In this document: positions 1,815-61,408 of the stretch, one piece after another
Position numbering within the stretch: position 1 is the first letter of the stretch
How the letters are laid out: every line of letters begins with the position of its first letter
NCBI GenBank assembly: GCA_964390595.1
Contig: CAYMIA010000001.1
Location: 59,981 to 123,980, forward strand
Direction: 5' to 3'
DNA length: 64,000 nt
Source: an uncultured Gammaproteobacteria bacterium
Lineage (GTDB): Bacteria > Patescibacteriota > Microgenomatia > Daviesbacterales > UBA10151
The notes under the pieces: generated by a model
Database searches by the model: none
Told to the model about the DNA's origin: nothing
Seen by the model: only the letters and a program-made list of their open reading frames with translations
Translations under genes and position numbers: made by a program

Positions 1815-2093
1815 TTAGTCTTTTTTGTGAGCCTCTTCAGCTTTGGTTATCTGATCAGCCACGCTGACCTCTTCAATATCTTTGCCATCATCGTTATCTT
1901 TGTTATAAAGTCCAGCTTGATGAGCTTCATCAGCTACACTTCTGGTTTCAGTTATTTCAGGATTTGGAGCGCTGCCATCAAAATCACTTTCGTCTAAGTT
2001 TTCTGGATCAGCTTTAATTGCATTGGCTAAGCCAGAATCCTCCTCATAAGCTTCCTCATTTTCATCTTTAACATCGCTATAATCATCGCTCAT
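1815..2093 (-). CDS. highly acidic, low-complexity protein (hypothetical)
   Basis: The ORF track gives 117 aa. The likely true start is the internal Met MSDDYSD, which is preceded by a strong SD (AAAGGGGGTGA, 4 nt spacer), giving about 92 aa. The protein is D/E-rich and looks disordered. Confidence 0.45.
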   Translation of the reverse strand: MSDDYSDVKDENEEAYEEDSGLANAIKADPENLDESDFDGSAPNPEITETRSVADEAHQAGLYNKDNDDGKDIEEVSVADQITKAEEAHKKD

Positions 2094-4489: not shown

Positions 4490-4595
4490 AAATTTAACAG
4501 TGGGTATACTACATTCTTATAGGTTGACAAGTCACGCAAGGTCAATCTTGATTTTTAAGCGGTAAAGGCGTAATGTCTAGTTGGAGGTGATTTAG

Positions 4596-5003
4596 ATGAC
4601 AGATAATTTAAAGGTTAAAGGAGTTGAGAGTGTTTTATTGGGATCGGGTAATTCTAAACAGCTAGCAGATTTTTATAAAGATAAGGTGGGGTTAAAGCTA
4701 ACAACTGAGGCTACGATGGGTGAAGGGGATGAGGCGACTGATGTGTATGGATTTGACATGGAGAATGGAACAGGTTTATATATTATGAATCATTCAGAGG
4801 TCCATGGTAAGAATAATATGCCTGGAAGAGTGATGTTAAACATTGAGGTAGTTGGTCAGATCGAGGAGGCTGTTGAGCAATTGAAAGGGCGAGGAGTAGA
4901 GATGGTTGGAGAATTACATCACGTTGAAGGTTATGGCAAGATTGCGACTTTCGAAGACCCAGACGGAAATTATTTTCAATTGGTTCAAGTTAAAGAGATC
5001 TAA
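4596..5003 (+). CDS. VOC (glyoxalase/bleomycin-resistance fold) family protein
   Basis: 135 aa. The C-terminal ATFEDPDGNYFQLVQ is a hallmark VOC beta-strand motif. A GGAGGTG SD lies upstream. A paralog is present at 22644..23006. Confidence 0.6.
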   Translation: MTDNLKVKGVESVLLGSGNSKQLADFYKDKVGLKLTTEATMGEGDEATDVYGFDMENGTGLYIMNHSEVHGKNNMPGRVMLNIEVVGQIEEAVEQLKGRGVEMVGELHHVEGYGKIATFEDPDGNYFQLVQVKEI

Positions 5004-10983: not shown

Positions 10984-11053
10984 CTTTACAGATCTCTTAC
11001 TCAAAAATTGCTTGCTTTTTATTTTTTATTGGTAGTATGGGGAGGAAAGTGAG

Positions 11054-11701
11054 GTGAGAGAGATGGCAAGAATGGTATTGGGTGTTTTTTCTCTTCGAGA
11101 TGAAGCTGAGATGGCAATCCGTGAGTTAGAGCGGGCGGGTTTTGATCCTAAGGATGTTTCTATTATCATGAAAAACCGTGAGGAAGCCCGGGAGATCTCG
11201 GATAATACCGAGGCTAATATCGCTGGAGGAGCGGTGACTGGAGCGACTGCTGGTGGCGCAATAGGCGCGCTTGCAGGTTTACTAATTGGGGTGGGGGCGA
11301 TAGCAGTGCCTGGTGTGGGAGCACTCTTAATTGGTGGCCCGATTGCGGCAGCGCTTGGCTTAACAGGGGCGGCGGCAGCGACTGCATCTGGTGCATTGAC
11401 TGGAGCTTTAGCTGGTGGTTTGATTGGCGGGTTACTTAGTTTGGGTGTGCCAGAAACTGATGCGAGAATCTATGAAGACCGTATTAAGGAGGGTGGTATC
11501 TTGCTTTTGGTGCCAGTTACCGACGGCAATACTGATGAGGCCAGAGAGATTCTGGAGACTAATGGGGCTGATCAGATTAAGATTGTGGGAGACTTAAAGA
11601 GCAGAAGAGGTGAATATGAAAGTCAGGGTTCACCGGCTTTTTATAGTGATGTTCCTAGAAAAAGAAGTGAGATTGATGAGTTTAATGAAGATGATATTTG
11701 A
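11054..11701 (+). CDS. general stress protein (YflT/GsiB-like N-domain) with glycine-zipper membrane segment
   Basis: 215 aa. The N-terminal VVGVFSLRDEAEMAIRELERAGFD...VSII resembles the YflT-type heat/stress-induced domain. An extensive G/A-rich glycine zipper follows. Confidence 0.45.
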   Translation: MREMARMVLGVFSLRDEAEMAIRELERAGFDPKDVSIIMKNREEAREISDNTEANIAGGAVTGATAGGAIGALAGLLIGVGAIAVPGVGALLIGGPIAAALGLTGAAAATASGALTGALAGGLIGGLLSLGVPETDARIYEDRIKEGGILLLVPVTDGNTDEAREILETNGADQIKIVGDLKSRRGEYESQGSPAFYSDVPRKRSEIDEFNEDDI

Positions 11702-11771: not shown

Positions 11772-11972
11772 ATGAAAGATGTGCAAAAACGTAATCCCAA
11801 AATGGTTACACCTGCTGGAGAGGAAGATTACACAATGACTGACAAACCAGCAGATTCAGGGGTAATGACAGGACAAAATGATTGGGAACAATATAACGCT
11901 GAGGTTTCACCGGATGACAGTGAGGAAGAGACGTTGGTTGGTGATGAAGGTGAAGATGAAGATGCAGAGTAA
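11772..11972 (+). CDS. small acidic protein (hypothetical)
   Basis: 66 aa, D/E-rich. A GGAGGTGA SD lies upstream. Confidence 0.35.
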   Translation: MKDVQKRNPKMVTPAGEEDYTMTDKPADSGVMTGQNDWEQYNAEVSPDDSEEETLVGDEGEDEDAE

Positions 11973-12568: not shown

Positions 12569-12654
12569 TTTATTACTATTTTCTTACCCAAGTTGGCAGA
12601 CAAATTTGTTAATTGATGATTAATCTAGAAATTTAGACTGGAGGTGAGATTGTT

Positions 12655-12789
12655 TTGGTAAAAGATTTATCTAGGAGGAATAAATTTAAGAAGAAGGAGA
12701 AGATAGCGATTGGTCAAGAACGCAATCCTTATGGAGAGACATTTTATAGTCAAGTTAGAGGATGGACAAAAAAGGCTAAAGGCCCTTAG
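12655..12789 (+). CDS. possible small basic protein (44 aa) with TTG start
   Basis: This ORF is not in the supplied track because it is under 60 aa. It follows a strong SD, GGAGGTGA, 7 nt upstream of TTG. Translation: (M)VKDLSRRNKFKKKEKIAIGQERNPYGETFYSQVRGWTKKAKGP. It sits in a gap of about 200 nt between genes. Confidence 0.25.
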   Translation: MVKDLSRRNKFKKKEKIAIGQERNPYGETFYSQVRGWTKKAKGP

Positions 12790-13915
12790 GGTTCCACATT
12801 GTGAGGTCTTCACCACCTAGCTTCCAGAAAACAAAGCTATTAATACCTAAGCTTTTAGCTAGAGAAATTTTTTTAAAGATACTAGTTTGGTCTTGAAACC
12901 AAACAGAGTGAGTATTATTTTGGGGATCAATATAAGAAAAATTTAGCTCCCCTGAATCTTTATCTCTGGTTGGATTAATATGATAGGTTTGAGCTTTGCC
13001 TATTAACTCAGTATAGGTTGAGCCAACCCCTTTTTTGCTGTCCCAGTCATAGCCATAATTTGGCAAACCAATAATAATTTTTTGGGGTGGAATGTTTTTT
13101 TGAGCATAGTTGATTGATGAGCGGAGATCCTCGAGTGGAGTAATTGGGCCTGGAGTTGAATTTTCGCTATGGAAATCATATGCCATCACTCTAATAAAAT
13201 CGGCCGACCTGCTCAAGTTTAAATAATCCTGACCCTTAGTGCCAATCCATTGATTATTTTCACCAGTTTGAGCGTGAACGGTGATGGAGAGGATTAGATT
13301 ATTGTGATGTAGCTGACTCGCTAGTTGGGAGACAAAACCGTTAAAATTTTCCTTATCGTCTGGGAGTATTTCCTCCCAATCTAGGTCCCAGCCATGAAAG
13401 CTAGCAGAAGTGGCGATGTTTGTTAGATCAGAAATTAGTTTTTGGCTGAGCTGCTTGTTATTTAAGAGTTTGTGGACTCGGGCTCCATCAAAGTCATTGC
13501 CGATAGAGGGAGTGACCAGGACGTTAGAGGACGCGGCGATGTTTAAAACTTCCTTTTTGTATTTAACAGCGAGCTCTTTAAGGGTGCCATCTGGTTCTAA
13601 TTTGTACCAAGCTGGGAGTATTTCGTTTAGGTTTTGGGAGGCGTTTTTAAATGAATTCAGAACACTGGCTTCATCCCAGGAGGGCAACCAGGCAGAGATA
13701 GTCGATTTCATAACTGGACTCATTGAAGTTTGAGTTACTGGAGAGGAGCTAATTATTTGAGGGGGTTGATTTAGCCATAATCTGGTAAAAAAAATTCCAC
13801 CTGAAATAACAATGATGGCAATTAGAATTGCCAGGTTTTTATTCATGTTATTTAACCCTTTTTTTACTGACGATTCGGCGGATTGATCGGCGGATTTTAC
13901 TGGTGCCGAGTACAC
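12776..13915 (-). CDS. glycoside hydrolase family 18 (chitinase-like) protein, membrane-anchored
   Basis: 379 aa. The GH18 catalytic motif D-x-x-D-x-D-x-E is present as HGWDLDWEE, and MAYDFH is also GH18-typical. N-terminal TM anchor. Confidence 0.7.
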   Translation of the reverse strand: MYSAPVKSADQSAESSVKKGLNNMNKNLAILIAIIVISGGIFFTRLWLNQPPQIISSSPVTQTSMSPVMKSTISAWLPSWDEASVLNSFKNASQNLNEILPAWYKLEPDGTLKELAVKYKKEVLNIAASSNVLVTPSIGNDFDGARVHKLLNNKQLSQKLISDLTNIATSASFHGWDLDWEEILPDDKENFNGFVSQLASQLHHNNLILSITVHAQTGENNQWIGTKGQDYLNLSRSADFIRVMAYDFHSENSTPGPITPLEDLRSSINYAQKNIPPQKIIIGLPNYGYDWDSKKGVGSTYTELIGKAQTYHINPTRDKDSGELNFSYIDPQNNTHSVWFQDQTSIFKKISLAKSLGINSFVFWKLGGEDLTMWNPKGL

Positions 13916-45684: not shown

Positions 45685-45766
45685 TGCTGGCGGTGGGATT
45701 CGAACCCACAAGGTCTAAGACCATTGGATTTTAAGTCCAACGTGTATACCATTCCACCACGCCAGC
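45685..45766 (-). tRNA. tRNA-Leu (anticodon UAA), class II with long variable arm
   Basis: Acceptor GCTGGCG/CGCCAGC is perfect. Anticodon stem TTGGA/TCCAA with loop CTTAAAA (anticodon TAA). Variable arm GGTC-TTA-GACC. T-arm GTGGG-TTCGAAT-CCCAC. Discriminator A. Confidence 0.8.
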
Positions 45767-45814: not shown

Positions 45815-46723
45815 GTGAAACGAGTAAAAAAGACCAAGCGGCCAACAAATTACTTTACTTTAGTGCTGCTAATAGCATTTTCAACAGCTTTAGCGCTTCT
45901 TCTAATTGTAATAATTAGTAAAAAGCCAGGTAGTGGATTAAAAAATACAGTCCAAGCTAAAGTTGCCCCAGTAGTTGTTAAAAAACCTGTAGCGCTAGTA
46001 AAAAAAGTTGCCGCCAATTCAGCTGCAACCATCCCTCAAAATTATGGCCGATCAGTCTCTGTGCCTATTTTGATGTATCACTATATAGGCAATAATCCTA
46101 ACTCAGCCGATAAAGCCCGGGATGTATTATCCACAGCGCCAGATAAATTTGATGAACAGATGGGTTATTTAGCTAAAAATGGCTTTAATCCGATTACTTT
46201 TGATACTTTGTATAGTGCCTTAAAGGGAACTGGAGGTTTACCAAGTAAACCAATTATTCTGACCTTTGATGATGGTTACACAGATTTTTATATTAATGCT
46301 TATCCAATTTTGCAAAAAAATGGCTTTAAAGCCGTGTCTTTTATTCCTACCGGACTGATGAATCAGGGGTATTATTTAACCTGGGACCAGATCAAAGAGA
46401 TGGATTCAGGAGGATTGATTCAATTTGAAGCCCACACCATCAATCATCTCAACTTGGCAACTTTAAGCCCAGATCAGATGAAATATCAAATAGTCGAAGG
46501 AAAAAAGCAGCTTGAAGAACATTTGGGTCATCCAGTTGGCTTTTTTGCATATCCTTATGGTGTTTCAAATGCAGTTGCTTGGCAGATTGTCAAAGAGGCT
46601 GGGTTTTTAGCTGCGGTGGGGACTTGGTATGGAACAGTCGAGTCGGAGGGAAATTTAGTAAATATGCCTAGAATAAGAATATCAGGCGGCTTGAGCCTTG
46701 ATGAGTTTGCAAAAAGAATCTGA
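45815..46723 (+). CDS. secreted polysaccharide deacetylase (NodB domain)
   Basis: 302 aa with an N-terminal TM/signal. NodB motif 1 is ILTFDDGYTDFY. A His motif sits downstream (EAHTINHL). Confidence 0.7.
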   Translation: MKRVKKTKRPTNYFTLVLLIAFSTALALLLIVIISKKPGSGLKNTVQAKVAPVVVKKPVALVKKVAANSAATIPQNYGRSVSVPILMYHYIGNNPNSADKARDVLSTAPDKFDEQMGYLAKNGFNPITFDTLYSALKGTGGLPSKPIILTFDDGYTDFYINAYPILQKNGFKAVSFIPTGLMNQGYYLTWDQIKEMDSGGLIQFEAHTINHLNLATLSPDQMKYQIVEGKKQLEEHLGHPVGFFAYPYGVSNAVAWQIVKEAGFLAAVGTWYGTVESEGNLVNMPRIRISGGLSLDEFAKRI

Positions 46724-46747: not shown

Positions 46748-46999
46748 TTAATCTTGTCTTGGTCTAGCTTCATTGACAACAATTTTCCGACCATCTAAAT
46801 CGGAATCATTGAGACTTTTGATCGCCTCATCTGCTTCTGCATCGTTAGCCATTTCGACAAACCCAAAGCCACGGCTTCTGCCGGTTGCTTTATCCATCAA
46901 TACAGTTGCGGATACGACTGTACCGAATTTAGAAAAAAGATCATTCAATTGTTGATTATTAACTGCCCAAGGAAGGGATCCAACAAATAACTTTTTAAT
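46748..46999 (-). CDS. RRM-type RNA-binding protein (Rbp-like), apparently AUU-initiated
   Basis: The ORF track gives a 66-aa fragment from a TTG. Extending upstream in frame yields a complete RRM: RNP2 KLFVGSLPW is followed by RNP1 RGFGFVEM. The only in-frame start before RNP2 is ATT (46997-46999), preceded by SD GGTGAG with a 5-nt spacer. An in-frame TGA lies just upstream of the ATT. Confidence 0.55.
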   Translation of the reverse strand: MKKLFVGSLPWAVNNQQLNDLFSKFGTVVSATVLMDKATGRSRGFGFVEMANDAEADEAIKSLNDSDLDGRKIVVNEARPRQD

Positions 47000-47063
47000 A
47001 AAAACTCACCACCTTACTAAAATTGTGAATTAAATTCACGGGTTAAGCTTACCTTAATACTTG

Positions 47064-48770
47064 CTAGAAATCAATTGGTTTATTTTGCGAGAGTTGGTTT
47101 AGAACATACTGAGTTTGAGGGGTGGGAGAAAGTAGATAGGAGTTTTGAGCGGCTTTGAGGGCGGAGGGTTGGTCATTTAATTTGTAATTGATCAAGGCTA
47201 GTAAAAACCAAAGCTTGGGGTTGTTTGGTAATTTTTTTAAAGAGCCCTCAGCATATACTTTAGCTTTTTGAATATCGCCATGAAAAAGTTCTAAGTTGGT
47301 TCTATTTTCATGAGCCAAATAGTAATCAGAGAGGGAGAGAGTTTTTTGATAGAGTTCTTGGGCTTTGGCGTAATAACCTTCTTTTTCATAAACTGCGCCT
47401 AAATTATTGTAGGCAAAGTGCCACTTAGGTTGCAGAGCAATTGAGCGCTCAAAATGCTTTTTAGCCTCAGAAAACTGCCCTGCTCTAAAGAGTTCAACTC
47501 CTAAATTATTTTCTAAATCAAAGCTATTTTGAGAAATTTTTAGGTCATGACTGTAAAGAGTTAGGCCATCGACCCAATTGGTGTTGCGGATTAAATTCCG
47601 GGTGGTTAAGCCAGCTATAGCGATTAAAACTAAAGCCAGGATTGCTGGAATTAGTTTGGGTTTGAAGTTTAAGAGTGAATTTAGAAGTGCTGCCAAGATA
47701 AAAATTATTCCCACAAAGGGTGCGTAATACCAGCGTTCAGCGACTGTCATATCCAGGGGAAAGATATTGGAGATCAGACCAAAACTAACCCCAAACCAGA
47801 TCAGACCAAATAGCGCCAGTTTTGAGTGAGTTTTATAAATATAGAAGCAGAGTAATCCCAGAAGAGTTAGCAAAATAAAGAGTTGCAAGAAGAAGTGGGG
47901 AAAGTTGGGTTGCAGGACCAAAAAGTGTTGAGAGATAGCCAGATTTTTAGGGAAAATGGTATTAGATAGGTAAAACATTAGTTCGGAAGGGATGGTTAAT
48001 AATCTGGTAATCAAGCTGGCGTCAGAGATAGGAGCAAACTCAGGCGAACGGAACGGAGTATGAACTAAAATCAGGCGGATAAATAGATAGATAATTAGTG
48101 TTGAGGTTAAAGTCAGGAATAGAGCCTGGCGGGAAGTTTTTTTAAATATCAATAAAAATGCGGCCAGGATGGGAAAAATAACTACTGATGATTCTTTGAG
48201 GAAGGTGCCAGAAAGTAAAAGTAAGGCAATTGAAGCGAGAATTTTCCAGTTAAAAGTTTGGTTTTTGATTATTAGATAGAGCGCTGATAGGTTGAAAAAA
48301 GTATACATGACCTCAGATGAGGCTGCTATATAGGAGACAGCTTCATTGATAGCTGGGTGGACAGCAAATATTAGAGCACCAACTAAGCTAACTGACTGAG
48401 AAATTTTTGTTTTGGGAAGAAGTAGGGATAGAATTTTAAAGATTAAAATAGCGTTGAGGAGGTGAAAAGTGAGCTGGAAAAGATGAAAACCCCAGGCATT
48501 AGCTCCCCAAATTGCATAATTTAGCATGTAGGAGAGCGTTAGAAAGGGCCTGAAAAACCAACCAGAGAGTCCAGCTCCTCCAGTTGAAAAGGTTGCTCCT
48601 GAAAAGATTTGGTTAATATTGCCCAGATTTTGAATAATGGCATTGTTGACAATTTGTTCTTCATCATCCCAGACAAAACCGTTAAAAAGGATGTTAAAAT
48701 AGGCCAAACTGCTAACTATACAGATTAAAATAACCGCTTTTTTAGGGGTTAGGGCTTGGAGAAGCTTCAT
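47064..48770 (-). CDS. GT-C-type (PMT/TMTC-like) membrane glycosyltransferase domain fused to C-terminal TPR repeats
   Basis: 568 aa. The N-terminal polytopic domain has FVWDDEE (DE motif) in the first loop. The C-terminal 150 aa or so carry TPR-like repeats (AYNNLGAVYEKEGYYAKAQELYQK). Confidence 0.55.
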   Translation of the reverse strand: MKLLQALTPKKAVILICIVSSLAYFNILFNGFVWDDEEQIVNNAIIQNLGNINQIFSGATFSTGGAGLSGWFFRPFLTLSYMLNYAIWGANAWGFHLFQLTFHLLNAILIFKILSLLLPKTKISQSVSLVGALIFAVHPAINEAVSYIAASSEVMYTFFNLSALYLIIKNQTFNWKILASIALLLLSGTFLKESSVVIFPILAAFLLIFKKTSRQALFLTLTSTLIIYLFIRLILVHTPFRSPEFAPISDASLITRLLTIPSELMFYLSNTIFPKNLAISQHFLVLQPNFPHFFLQLFILLTLLGLLCFYIYKTHSKLALFGLIWFGVSFGLISNIFPLDMTVAERWYYAPFVGIIFILAALLNSLLNFKPKLIPAILALVLIAIAGLTTRNLIRNTNWVDGLTLYSHDLKISQNSFDLENNLGVELFRAGQFSEAKKHFERSIALQPKWHFAYNNLGAVYEKEGYYAKAQELYQKTLSLSDYYLAHENRTNLELFHGDIQKAKVYAEGSLKKLPNNPKLWFLLALINYKLNDQPSALKAAQNSYLLSPTPQTQYVLNQLSQNKPIDF

Positions 48771-60802: not shown

Positions 60803-61408
60803 ATGAAATTAGGATATAAAGTTGGTGCGATGTTATCAACTGGAGCCTTGCTGGCTTCTGTTTTTGCTCCAGTAGCTTTTGCTAGCAGTGATGTGACCGT
60901 TTCAGGAAATGGTGCAGGTTCAACAAGTATTGTTAATGTATCCGGTGGAACTAGCGGTGGTGGAAGTGTTACTCAAACTAATAACACAACCGTGCTAACT
61001 ACGGTCAATGCTTCAAGCAACACAGGTTATAACCAATCTAATGCTAATACTGGTGGGGGTGTAAGCACTACTACCGGATCCGCTACAACAGGCGTTAACG
61101 TTTCAGTTGCAGGTGGTACAAATGTGGCAACAGGTACTGATTGTGGTTGCGCAACAAACACCAATACAGTCAATGTTCTTGGTAATGGAGCTGGATCTCT
61201 CAATTTAGTTAATATTTGGGGGAGTAAAAAAGGTTCTTCAACTAAACAAACAAATAATGTATTTGTTGGTGTGGGAGTAAATGCAGGATCAAATACTGGT
61301 TACAACCAGTCAAATGCAAATACCGGACCTGGTGGAGTCACCACAGCAACTGGTGGATCTACAACTGGTGTAGGAGTTAATGTGACGGGTTCAACAAACG
61401 TCCATTAA
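60803..61408 (+). CDS. secreted Asn/Gly/Thr-rich tandem-repeat protein (two repeats of about 85 aa)
   Basis: 201 aa with signal peptide MKLGYKVGAMLSTGALLASVFAPVAFA. Repeat 1: VSGNGAGSTSIVNVSGG...NASSNTGYNQSNANTGGG...VNVSVAGGTNV. Repeat 2: VLGNGAGSLNLVNIWG...NAGSNTGYNQSNANTGPGG...VNVTGSTNV. Confidence 0.55.
   Translation: MKLGYKVGAMLSTGALLASVFAPVAFASSDVTVSGNGAGSTSIVNVSGGTSGGGSVTQTNNTTVLTTVNASSNTGYNQSNANTGGGVSTTTGSATTGVNVSVAGGTNVATGTDCGCATNTNTVNVLGNGAGSLNLVNIWGSKKGSSTKQTNNVFVGVGVNAGSNTGYNQSNANTGPGGVTTATGGSTTGVGVNVTGSTNVH

What the first reader, a model, noticed from the sequence alone, without database searches (positions are those of the whole stretch)
46748..47010. Complete RRM RNA-binding protein is only encodable from an AUU start codon (with good SD); ATG/GTG/TTG starts would delete RNP2
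The annotated ORF (TTG at 46948) begins in the middle of an RRM (NDLFSKFG...RGFGFVEM). Reading upstream in the same frame gives the missing beta1/RNP2 element KLFVGSLPW, and the intact 83-aa product resembles cyanobacterial and Gram-positive Rbp proteins. The frame closes with TGA just upstream. The only candidate initiator before RNP2 is ATT at 46997-46999, sitting 5 nt downstream of GGTGAG. AUU initiation is rare (infC is the textbook case) and is usually autoregulatory.
Basis: seen in the sequence. Interest (0 to 1): 0.5.

Follow-up and report, generated by a model that had tools for sequence, protein, structure and literature searches.

The report
Conserved AUU-start RRM RNA-binding protein gene
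A small RNA-binding protein gene in this uncultivated (Daviesbacteria-like) bacterium really does begin at the rare start codon AUU, as it does in at least nine related genomes. Standard gene callers therefore truncate or mis-extend it, and the weak start probably throttles how much protein is made.

Summary
On the minus strand the frame reads TGA GTT TTT ATT(46999-46997) AAA AAG TTA TTT GTT GGA and runs to TAA (46750-46748). Only the ATT start gives a complete RRM: 83 aa, with Pfam RRM_1 profile positions 1-69. The database call from TTG 46948 gives 66 aa and loses beta1/RNP2.

ATT is not a base-call error or a pseudogene lesion.
- Nine other assemblies of orthologs, some syntenic, carry ATT at the same codon.
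- Six orthologs carry TTG there and one carries ATG.
- All have the same extended Shine-Dalgarno, (A)AGG(T/C)GGTGA, 5-9 nt upstream.
- The spacer varies in length, so the SD falls in all three frames. The GGTGGTGA block is therefore non-coding, and the in-frame GTG that most gene callers pick in relatives ("MITIKKLFVG") is inside the SD.
- Codons 2-17 are under purifying selection.
- Two GenBank orthologs are already annotated with M on this ATT.

The most likely mechanism is SD-anchored initiation by fMet-tRNA on AUU. This would be inefficient and IF3-sensitive, and would cap or condition expression, as in infC, pcnB and S. aureus cvfC1/ccpN. Autoregulation of the infC type is not supported. 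I rate it a new member of a known kind, of moderate interest.

The parts
46748..46999 (-). Complete coding sequence of a single-domain RRM RNA-binding protein: 83 codons plus the TAA stop. Start is ATT 46999-46997; stop is TAA 46750-46748.
   Evidence: Translation. Pfam RRM_1 82.5 bits over profile 1-69/70. NCBIfam NF058537 Rbp_regulator 111.6 bits, above the cutoff of 100. 73-82% identical to Daviesbacteria-type orthologs.
46997..46999 (-). ATT (AUU) initiation codon.
   Evidence: It is the only initiator-class codon between the in-frame TGA and RNP2. ATT sits at the aligned codon in L001-L005, L081, L166, L167 and L169. TTG sits there in L006/L082, L009, L086, L163-165, L168 and L170. ATG sits there in L171/172.
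47006..47015 (-). Extended Shine-Dalgarno AAGGTGGTGA. Its last three bases are the in-frame TGA that closes the frame upstream.
   Evidence: Duplex energy with a generic 16S 3' tail is -13.2 kcal/mol, among the strongest SDs at gene starts in the window. GG(T/C)GGTGA is nearly invariant in 15 orthologs. It falls in all three reading frames relative to the start (spacers of 5, 6, 7, 8 and 9 nt), so it is not coding.
47000..47005 (-). 6-nt spacer GTTTTT between the SD and ATT.
   Evidence: Other strong-SD genes in the window have 4-7 nt after GGTGA. Ortholog spacers are GTATTA (L001), GTTTCT (L166) and GTATAT (L169). All three are 6 nt, have TGA in frame, and are not homopolymers.
46973..46990 (-). 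RNP2 hexamer LFVGSL (beta1). It is lost if translation starts at TTG 46948.
   Evidence: Translation and Pfam coverage. For codons 2-17, dN is 0.05-0.29 against dS 0.8-1.9 (dS too saturated to estimate in four comparisons), and the variable sites by codon position number 8/6/15 of 16.
46850..46873 (-). RNP1 octamer RGFGFVEM (beta3).
   Evidence: Translation. Invariant in all 16 aligned orthologs.
46946..46948 (-). TTG used as the start by the public or mechanical annotation (66-aa truncated product). It is an internal Leu18 codon.
   Evidence: the ORF listing. P0028 is identical to the 66-aa ORF. No SD precedes it (-2.6 kcal/mol).
47046..47074 (-). Putative promoter, inferred with low confidence: TTGATT (47074-47069), 17 nt, TAAGCT (47051-47046). 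It overlaps the stop codon of the upstream TPR gene (TAG 47066-47064).
   Evidence: Read from the sequence. Orthologs have TTGATT/TTGCAT/TTGACT followed by a TATAAT-like hexamer at the head of their leaders. The strict consensus scan did not report it, because the -10 hexamer matches only 3/6.
47025..47039 (-). Palindrome GTGAATTTAATTCAC. It would form a hairpin at or near the 5' end of the short leader.
   Evidence: Predicted 6-bp hairpin. Not conserved in orthologs.

Best explanation
The gene at 46999-46748 (minus strand) encodes a full-length 83-aa single-RRM RNA-binding protein, and its translation starts at AUU.

The proposed mechanism is as follows. The 30S subunit is anchored by an extended Shine-Dalgarno (AAGGUGGUGA, a 9/10 match to the anti-SD complement). 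This places the AUU 6 nt downstream in the P site. Initiator fMet-tRNA reads AUU with a third-position mismatch, so the protein begins fMet-Lys-Lys-Leu-Phe-Val-Gly. AUU is a non-canonical start that IF3 discriminates against. Initiation is therefore expected to run at a fraction of what AUG would give: roughly 5-10% in E. coli and S. aureus reporters. The strong SD plus weak codon then sets a capped output that responds to IF3, ppGpp and growth state for an abundant-type RNA binder.

What is shown: the position of the start, the conservation of ATT and of the SD, the coding constraint on the N-terminus, and family membership. What is inferred: decoding by fMet-tRNA, reduced efficiency, IF3 sensitivity, and any regulatory purpose.
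For: (1) Only ATT can open the complete domain.
(2) Nine other assemblies have ATT at the aligned codon. Their third-position identity to each other is only 38-68%, yet the start-codon third base is T in 10/10. Ile codon usage in the window is only 53% ATT.
(3) In six further orthologs the aligned codon is TTG, always TTG although TTG is only 17.5% of Leu codons. In one it is ATG.
(4) In L163-165 the spacer is 7 nt and the upstream frame reads *IGGEYF. In L001, L166, L169 and the window the spacer is 6 nt and the TGA of the SD is in frame. In both cases no upstream start is possible, and the start must be the aligned codon.
(5) GG(T/C)GGTGA is nearly invariant, while the 'residues' between it and the start vary widely (T, I, H, S, Y, N, F, Q, L).
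(6) Codons 2-17 have dN far below dS.
(7) Orthology is supported by synteny: RRM gene, convergent Polysacc_deac_1 gene, tRNA-Leu; in L168 also the upstream TPR protein.
(8) GenBank proteins MBI2011194.1 and MBI2595710.1 begin with M on the ATT of L005 and L169.
(9) There is precedent. Conserved AUU/AUA starts with extended SDs in S. aureus cvfC1 and ccpN give about 10% of AUG (PMC13009471). AUU mRNAs are less active, especially at low temperature and under ppGpp (PMC5499595).
Against: There is no direct evidence of expression or of the N-terminus: no proteomics, ribosome profiling or reads.

The 16S 3' end of this organism is not in the window, so SD complementarity uses a generic anti-SD.

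Most genes in the window have weak or no SD, so SD-independent initiation exists in this genome.

In the 5-nt-spacer orthologs (L002-L005, L081, L167) a GTG lies in frame inside the SD, so a GTG start cannot be formally excluded for those loci.

ATG occurs in one related lineage (L171), so a weak start is not obligatory for the family. The regulatory reading could therefore be over-interpretation of a tolerated state.
Confidence: 0.85

Rival explanations
1. Base-call or assembly error, or a recent inactivating mutation: the true start is ATG and the window carries ATG->ATT (a pseudogene or artefact).
For: ATT is one substitution from ATG. One related ortholog (L171/L172) has ATG at this codon behind the same SD. 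MAG assemblies do contain errors.
Against: ATT is present at the same codon in nine other assemblies from different studies and sources (GenBank MAGs, TPA assemblies, JGI/ENA/Logan contigs). Their synonymous sites are near saturation. 68 of the 120 closest 90%-identity protein clusters have Ile at this position. The coding sequence, including codons 2-17, is under purifying selection.
Confidence: 0.03
2. The real start in this gene family is the GTG inside 'GGTGA', giving MITIKKLFVG / MSFIKKLFVG as most databases annotate. On this view the window (T5 run against T4 in 'GTG AGT TTT ATT' relatives) carries a +1 homopolymer error or frameshift that puts TGA in frame.
For: 68 of 120 close homologs are called this way. 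The window spacer GTTTTT differs from the 'MSFIKK' type by one T.
Against: The distance from GGTGA to the aligned codon is 5, 6, 7, 8 or 9 nt in different orthologs, so GTG is in frame in only one class. The 6-nt class includes the non-homopolymer spacers GTATTA, GTTTCT and GTATAT. The 7-nt class (L163-165) reads *IGGEYF-TTG. No SD precedes the GTG, whereas GGTGGTGA is itself a near-perfect SD correctly spaced for ATT/TTG/ATG. The intervening 'residues' are unconstrained.
Confidence: 0.04
3. The annotated 66-aa product from TTG 46948 is the real protein (an N-terminally truncated RRM), and the upstream in-frame similarity is a relic.
For: It is the first canonical start. It is the public call for this genome (P0028).
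Against: It would remove beta1/RNP2, since Pfam covers only profile 16-69. There is no SD before the TTG (-2.6 kcal/mol). The 16 upstream codons show dN 0.05-0.29 against dS of about 0.8-1.9 and third-position-biased variation. Orthologs keep KKLFVGSLPW nearly invariant.
Confidence: 0.03
4. AUU is the genuine start but has no regulatory purpose. It is a nearly neutral, tolerated state that drifts among ATG, ATT and TTG because the very strong SD and the A-rich downstream codons keep output adequate.
For: All three codons occur at the same position in related lineages, and ATT and TTG lineages are interleaved by sequence similarity. Non-ATG starts are common in bacterial RRM genes generally; a rough tally of the fetched loci gives ATG 106, GTG 29, TTG 26, ATT 9. 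No conserved structure or IF3 link was found.
Against: ATT is the majority state among the closest 120 clusters. It is retained across lineages whose synonymous sites are saturated, and always as ATT rather than ATC or ATA. The path from ATT to TTG needs an ATG or a non-start intermediate, yet ATG was found in only 1 of 17 distinct Daviesbacteria-type loci. Experimentally, AUU costs about 90% of output (PMC13009471), which is unlikely to be neutral.
Confidence: 0.3

Closest known systems
S. aureus cvfC1 (AUU) and ccpN (AUA): conserved non-canonical start codons with extended SD (Nat Commun 2026, PMC13009471)
   Same: A non-canonical AUN start conserved across related species. It is preceded by a strong, extended, conserved SD at proper spacing. 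The gene encodes a small regulatory or nucleic-acid-binding protein that standard annotation misses or mis-calls.
   Different: Those sites were mapped by retapamulin ribosome profiling and quantified at about 10% of AUG. Here the evidence is comparative only. The phylum (Patescibacteria/CPR) and the gene family (RRM) are different. Here ATT alternates with TTG and ATG among relatives.
E. coli infC (IF3) AUU start and pcnB AUU start
   Same: Chromosomal genes that genuinely initiate at AUU. IF3 discriminates against the codon, which lowers and conditions expression.
   Different: infC is autoregulatory because its product is the discriminating factor. The product here is an RRM protein, so that loop does not exist. 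pcnB is simply expression-limited, which is the nearer analogy. infC is not in the window.
Bacterial single-RRM Rbp proteins: cyanobacterial Rbp1-3, Bacteroides RbpA/B/C (PMC13370968, PMC11697453), H. pylori 12RNP2 (PDB 2ki2)
   Same: An RRM_1 domain of 80-100 aa with canonical RNP2 and RNP1. It matches NCBIfam Rbp_regulator above the cutoff. Orthologs appear to have leaders of about 100 nt, like the 120-155-nt 5' UTRs of the Bacteroides rbp genes, which undergo negative auto- and cross-regulation.
   Different: The window protein has no C-terminal Gly-rich tail. The window's own leader is short (64-nt intergenic region). Cold induction, targets and feedback are untested. In the two Bacteroides papers read here, a search found no discussion of the rbp genes' own start codons.

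Membership tests
RRM_1 (Pfam PF00076) / NCBIfam NF058537 Rbp_regulator single-domain bacterial RNA-binding proteins | Full-length match to the family profile above the curated cutoff | tested here: met
   RRM_1 82.5 bits (cutoff 20.7), profile 1-69/70. NF058537 111.6 bits (cutoff 100), profile 2-79/79.
RRM_1 (Pfam PF00076) / NCBIfam NF058537 Rbp_regulator single-domain bacterial RNA-binding proteins | RNP2 hexamer on beta1 and RNP1 octamer on beta3 | tested here: met
   LFVGSL (residues 4-9) and RGFGFVEM (residues 43-50) in the ATT-started product. RNP2 is absent from the TTG-started product.
RRM_1 (Pfam PF00076) / NCBIfam NF058537 Rbp_regulator single-domain bacterial RNA-binding proteins | beta-alpha-beta-beta-alpha-beta fold and single-stranded RNA binding | not tested
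   Only sequence similarity to solved RRMs was checked (PABP, cS22, hnRNP A1, H. pylori 2ki2). No structure prediction or binding assay was run.
Genes with a conserved non-canonical (AUU/AUA/AUC) initiation codon and extended SD (infC, pcnB, cvfC1, ccpN type) | No canonical in-frame start can produce the complete conserved protein | tested here: met
   An in-frame TGA lies 2 codons upstream of ATT. The first ATG/GTG/TTG is at codon 18, inside the domain.
Genes with a conserved non-canonical (AUU/AUA/AUC) initiation codon and extended SD (infC, pcnB, cvfC1, ccpN type) | The non-canonical codon is conserved in orthologs from other genomes | tested here: met
   ATT in nine other assemblies. TTG (six) or ATG (one) at the same codon elsewhere. 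68 of 120 clusters have Ile there.
Genes with a conserved non-canonical (AUU/AUA/AUC) initiation codon and extended SD (infC, pcnB, cvfC1, ccpN type) | Strong or extended SD at functional spacing, conserved with the start | tested here: met
   AAGGTGGTGA, -13.2 kcal/mol, 6-nt spacer. GG(T/C)GGTGA is nearly invariant in orthologs. Caveat: a generic anti-SD was assumed.
Genes with a conserved non-canonical (AUU/AUA/AUC) initiation codon and extended SD (infC, pcnB, cvfC1, ccpN type) | Initiation at the codon shown experimentally (ribosome profiling, toeprint, N-terminal peptide), with reduced efficiency relative to AUG | not testable with these tools
   No expression data are available for this uncultivated organism.
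infC-type autoregulation through the AUU codon | The gene product is itself the factor (IF3) that discriminates against its own AUU start | tested here: not met
   The product is an RRM protein, not IF3. No IF3 homolog is in the window. The gene may be IF3-responsive but is not autoregulated in the infC sense.
Cold-shock-like Rbp genes with a long regulatory 5' UTR (Bacteroides rbpA-C, cyanobacterial rbp) | Long (>100 nt) 5' UTR mediating feedback or thermal control | tested here: inconclusive
   The window has only 64 nt between the upstream stop and ATT. Orthologs have leaders of about 95-110 nt, judged from promoter-like hexamers, that are rich in CTAG/YTAGT repeats. They show no conserved secondary structure and no Rfam match.

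The most novel reading that the evidence does not exclude
In Daviesbacteria (CPR), the rbp gene is held on a weak AUU (or UUG) start behind a near-perfect extended SD as a deliberate translational valve. Output would track IF3, ppGpp, temperature or growth state. In most orthologs this would be combined with an unstructured leader of about 100 nt carrying 4-6 YUAGU repeats, which would be the RRM protein's own single-strand binding sites. [quoted passage not shown]
Probability: 0.2. Interest if true: 0.6.

Novelty: new member of a known kind. Interest (0 to 1): 0.5.

Why it matters
Well-documented, conserved AUU-initiated bacterial genes are few: infC, pcnB, and recently cvfC1 and ccpN. This adds a gene family and a phylum (CPR/Patescibacteria) in which AUU is the majority state across a clade.

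The case also exposes a systematic annotation error. Most public versions of these proteins are either extended from a GTG that lies inside the Shine-Dalgarno sequence, or truncated so that RNP2 is missing.

It gives a testable handle on how a probable global RNA-binding protein is dosed in organisms that cannot be cultured. It is also a clean comparative example (ATT/TTG/ATG at one codon behind a fixed SD) for studying selection on start-codon strength.

Tried and rejected
- Exact look-ups of the window's 66-aa ORF and of P0028 in the contig index found nothing. The source contig could not be retrieved, although P0028 (NCBI, 131.8-kb contig) matches the ORF.
- TGA recoding (code 25) was rejected. 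TGA ends 6 of 24 long ORFs, and no start lies further upstream.
- A GTG-in-SD start plus a frameshift was rejected on spacer-length variation.
- A mini-ORF, GTG GTG AGT TTT TAT TAA (47012-46995), has a stop that overlaps ATT and could in principle allow termination-reinitiation. I set it aside because its GTG has no SD, the overlap follows trivially from 'ATT AAA', and the 5- and 7-nt-spacer orthologs lack it.
- Rfam found no family in the window near the gene or in 13 ortholog loci, other than tRNAs.
- RNAalifold on 15 leaders gave 0 pairs. The window-specific hairpins are not conserved, so there is no support for a thermosensor.
- The strict promoter scan found no minus-strand promoter. The promoter listed in parts is inferred by eye from orthologs.
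- No IF3 gene was found in the window for comparing start codons (the query sequence was recalled from memory).
- No CTAG cluster like the ortholog leaders exists elsewhere in the window.
- Literature searches for RRM in Patescibacteria and for ATT starts in CPR returned nothing.

Full report
**1.

On the minus strand the frame reads TAA TTC ACA ATT TTA GTA AGG TGG TGA(47008-47006) GTT TTT ATT(46999-46997) AAA AAG TTA TTT GTT GGA TCC CTT CCT TGG ... TAA(46750-46748). There is no ATG, GTG or TTG between the in-frame TGA and the RNP2 element LFVGSL (46990-46973). The first canonical start is TTG 46948, which gives the mechanical 66-aa ORF. That ORF is identical to the public protein P0028 from a 131.8-kb NCBI contig.

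Pfam RRM_1 covers profile positions 1-69 of 70 in the 83-aa ATT-started product (82.5 bits). It covers only 16-69 in the 66-aa product. NCBIfam NF058537 'Rbp_regulator' is matched above its cutoff (111.6 against 100).

TGA is a normal stop here, ending 6 of 24 long ORFs. Reading through it would not expose another start.

**2. The signal in front of the ATT**

AAGGTGGTGA (47015-47006) matches the ideal anti-SD complement AAGGAGGTGA at 9 of 10 positions. Against a generic 16S 3' tail it pairs at -13.2 kcal/mol. The region before TTG 46948 pairs at only -2.6 kcal/mol.

Most genes in this window have weak or no SD. Only a handful have stronger ones: a glyoxalase, a YflT-domain protein and three unknowns. 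In those genes the start follows GGTGA by 4-7 nt. The ATT follows by 6 nt.

**3. Comparative evidence**

The closest homologs are 'RNA-binding protein [Candidatus Daviesbacteria bacterium]', at 73-82% identity. I retrieved DNA for 171 related loci from genome and metagenome collections and from exact-protein look-ups.

Codon aligned to the window's ATT:

| Codon | Loci |
|---|---|
| ATT | L001-L005, L081, L166, L167, L169 (nine other assemblies) |
| TTG | L006/L082, L009, L086, L163-165, L168, L170 |
| ATG | L171/L172 |

All of these carry GG(T/C)GGTGA or a close variant just upstream.

Orthology is backed by synteny. A convergent polysaccharide deacetylase gene and a tRNA-Leu lie downstream, and in L168 the TPR membrane protein lies upstream, as in the window.

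**4. A rival that had to be excluded**

68 of the 120 closest 90%-identity clusters are annotated as M-I-x-I-K-K-LFVG or similar. Their callers started at the GTG inside GGTGA, which lies in frame when the spacer is 5 nt. One could then argue that GTG is the true start and that the window, with a T5 run, has a frameshift.

The DNA rules this out.
- The distance from GGTGA to the aligned codon is 5 nt in L002-L005, L009, L081 and L167.
- It is 6 nt in the window, L001 (GTATTA), L166 (GTTTCT) and L169 (GTATAT). In these the TGA is in frame and the spacers are not homopolymers.
- It is 7 nt in L163-165, where the upstream frame reads *IGGEYF.
- It is 8 nt in L171 and 9 nt in L168.

The GGTGGTGA block therefore sits in all three frames. 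The 'residues' between it and the start are unconstrained (T/I/H/S/Y/N/F/Q/L), and nothing SD-like precedes the GTG. The block is the ribosome-binding site, not coding sequence, and the start is the aligned ATT/TTG/ATG.

**5. The N-terminus is translated**

I compared the window with 15 orthologs over the 16 codons between ATT and the annotated TTG.
- dN is 0.05-0.29 against dS 0.8-1.9; dS was too saturated to estimate in four of the comparisons.
- Variable sites by codon position number 8, 6 and 15 of 16.

Third-position identity among the ATT loci is only 38-68%. Yet the start codon is ATT in 10/10, although Ile usage is 53% ATT, 32% ATC and 15% ATA. Leu at that codon is always TTG, although TTG is 17.5% of Leu codons. 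This is the behaviour of an initiation codon, not a sense codon.

**6. Not entirely unnoticed**

GenBank proteins MBI2011194.1 (P0066, the L005 locus) and MBI2595710.1 (P0002, the L169 locus) start with M exactly on the ATT. NCBI's annotation has thus already accepted this start in two orthologs. This genome and most other database entries carry truncated or extended calls. I found no paper describing it.

**7. Mechanism**

Shown: the position of the start, the conserved extended SD and its spacing, ATT conservation, and coding constraint.

Inferred from established knowledge:
- fMet-tRNA decodes AUU in the P site.
- IF3 discriminates against AUU-class codons (infC, pcnB).
- Output is about 5-10% of AUG. 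S. aureus cvfC1 AUU and ccpN AUA, both with conserved extended SDs, give about 10% (PMC13009471).
- AUU mRNAs compete poorly, especially at low temperature and with ppGpp (PMC5499595).

The likeliest function is a cap on translation of a strongly ribosome-recruiting mRNA, possibly conditional on IF3 or growth state.

ATT, TTG and ATG lineages are interleaved, and ATG exists in one lineage. A nearly neutral 'tolerated weak start' therefore remains a serious alternative for the purpose, though not for the fact, of AUU initiation.

**8. Leader**

Orthologs have promoter-like hexamers (TTGATT/TTGCAT ... TATAAT-like) about 100-110 nt upstream. Their leaders are rich in CTAG/YTAGT: 2.9 CTAG per 100 nt, against 0.19 in flanking DNA and 0.35 in the window's intergenic DNA. 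They have no conserved secondary structure and no Rfam match.

Bacterial RRM proteins bind single-stranded RNA. The Bacteroides rbp genes have 5' UTRs of 120-155 nt with negative auto- and cross-regulation (PMC13370968, PMC11697453). Self-binding is therefore a reasonable but untested idea.

The window itself has only 64 nt between the upstream stop and ATT. It keeps just TTAGTAAGG next to the SD, and has two non-conserved predicted hairpins.

**9. Verdict**

This is a real AUU-initiated gene that is mis-called in public data. It is a new member of a known kind, namely conserved non-canonical starts with extended SDs, in a new phylum and gene family. The AUU state predominates across a clade. 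Interest is moderate (0.5). Confidence that AUU is the start is about 0.85. Confidence in a regulatory purpose is much lower.

Noticed in passing
L001, L002-L005, L009, L081, L163, L166, L167, L169-L171: about 100 nt upstream of the RRM start (e.g. L169:1390-1490). In the window only 47024-47016 (TTTTAGTAA) and 47068-47058.: Ortholog leaders carry 2-5 CTAG and up to 9 TAG per 98 nt, as repeated YTAGT / GCTAGCGACTAGAT motifs. This is about 8-15 times background. They have no conserved secondary structure and no Rfam match. These could be single-strand binding sites for the RRM protein or another regulator. The window's leader has largely lost them.
   Followed up: partly
window 46991-47040 (minus strand): The window's own translation initiation region is predicted to form two hairpins (z = -2.4). 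One is GUGAAU/AUUCAC at the likely 5' end. The other is an 11-bp A-U/G-U stem pairing UUUUAGUAAGG with UUUUAUUAAAA. It would bury the AUU and the 5' part of the SD and leave UGGUGAGU in the loop. It is not conserved in orthologs.
   Followed up: partly
P0003, P0009, P0011, P0015... (68 of the 120 closest clusters); P0037, P0055, P0065, P0118, P0119, P0028: Public annotation of this gene family is systematically wrong. N-termini are extended by 3-4 or more residues from a GTG or TTG inside or upstream of the SD (MITIKK, MVITIKK, MLRLSNTRLAVITIKK). Others are truncated to MGSLPW or MNDLFS, which removes part or all of RNP2.
   Followed up: yes
L018, L019, L021, L083-L085, L088, L090, L094, L100, L106, L107, L111, L112, L120-L122, L124, L129, L130, L140, L143, L145; also L008, L012, L013, L087-L098, L104: Non-ATG starts are frequent in bacterial single-RRM genes generally. 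An Ignavibacteria-like group uses GTG (GAGGT..GTG AGT ACT AAG). Another Microgenomates group uses TTG two codons upstream (TTG AAT AAC). A rough tally over the fetched loci gives ATG 106, GTG 29, TTG 26, ATT 9.
   Followed up: partly
window, whole; strong SDs at 4583, 11758, 11040-11060, 60788 (+) and 2105 (-): Most genes in the window have little or no SD complementarity. A few have long GGAGGTGA-type SDs: glyoxalase 4596-5003, YflT-domain protein 11063-11701, and unknowns at 60803-61408, 1815-2093(-) and 11772-11972. SD use looks selective in this genome.
   Followed up: partly
window 12640-12789 (+): An unannotated-looking small ORF. GGAGGTGA (12640-12647), then 7 nt, then TTG 12655, then 44 Lys-rich codons (MVKDLSRRNKFKKKEKIAIGQERNPYGETFYSQVRGWTKKAKGP) up to TAG 12787-12789. 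It lies in the gap before the convergent gene at 12776-13915.
   Followed up: no
L001, L002, L007, L008, L010, L025 (record titles): Several TPA MAG records titled 'uncultured Gammaproteobacteria bacterium' carry Daviesbacteria- or Patescibacteria-type RRM loci, with the same SD, leader and synteny as the Daviesbacteria MAGs. This suggests mislabelled taxonomy in those assemblies.
   Followed up: no
window 45685-45766 (-), 45815-46723 (+), 47064-48770 (-): The neighbourhood around the RRM gene is conserved in several orthologs. It comprises tRNA-Leu(UAA), a convergent polysaccharide deacetylase (24 nt separate the two stop codons, with no terminator found between them), and a TPR membrane protein upstream (also seen in L168).
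   Followed up: partly
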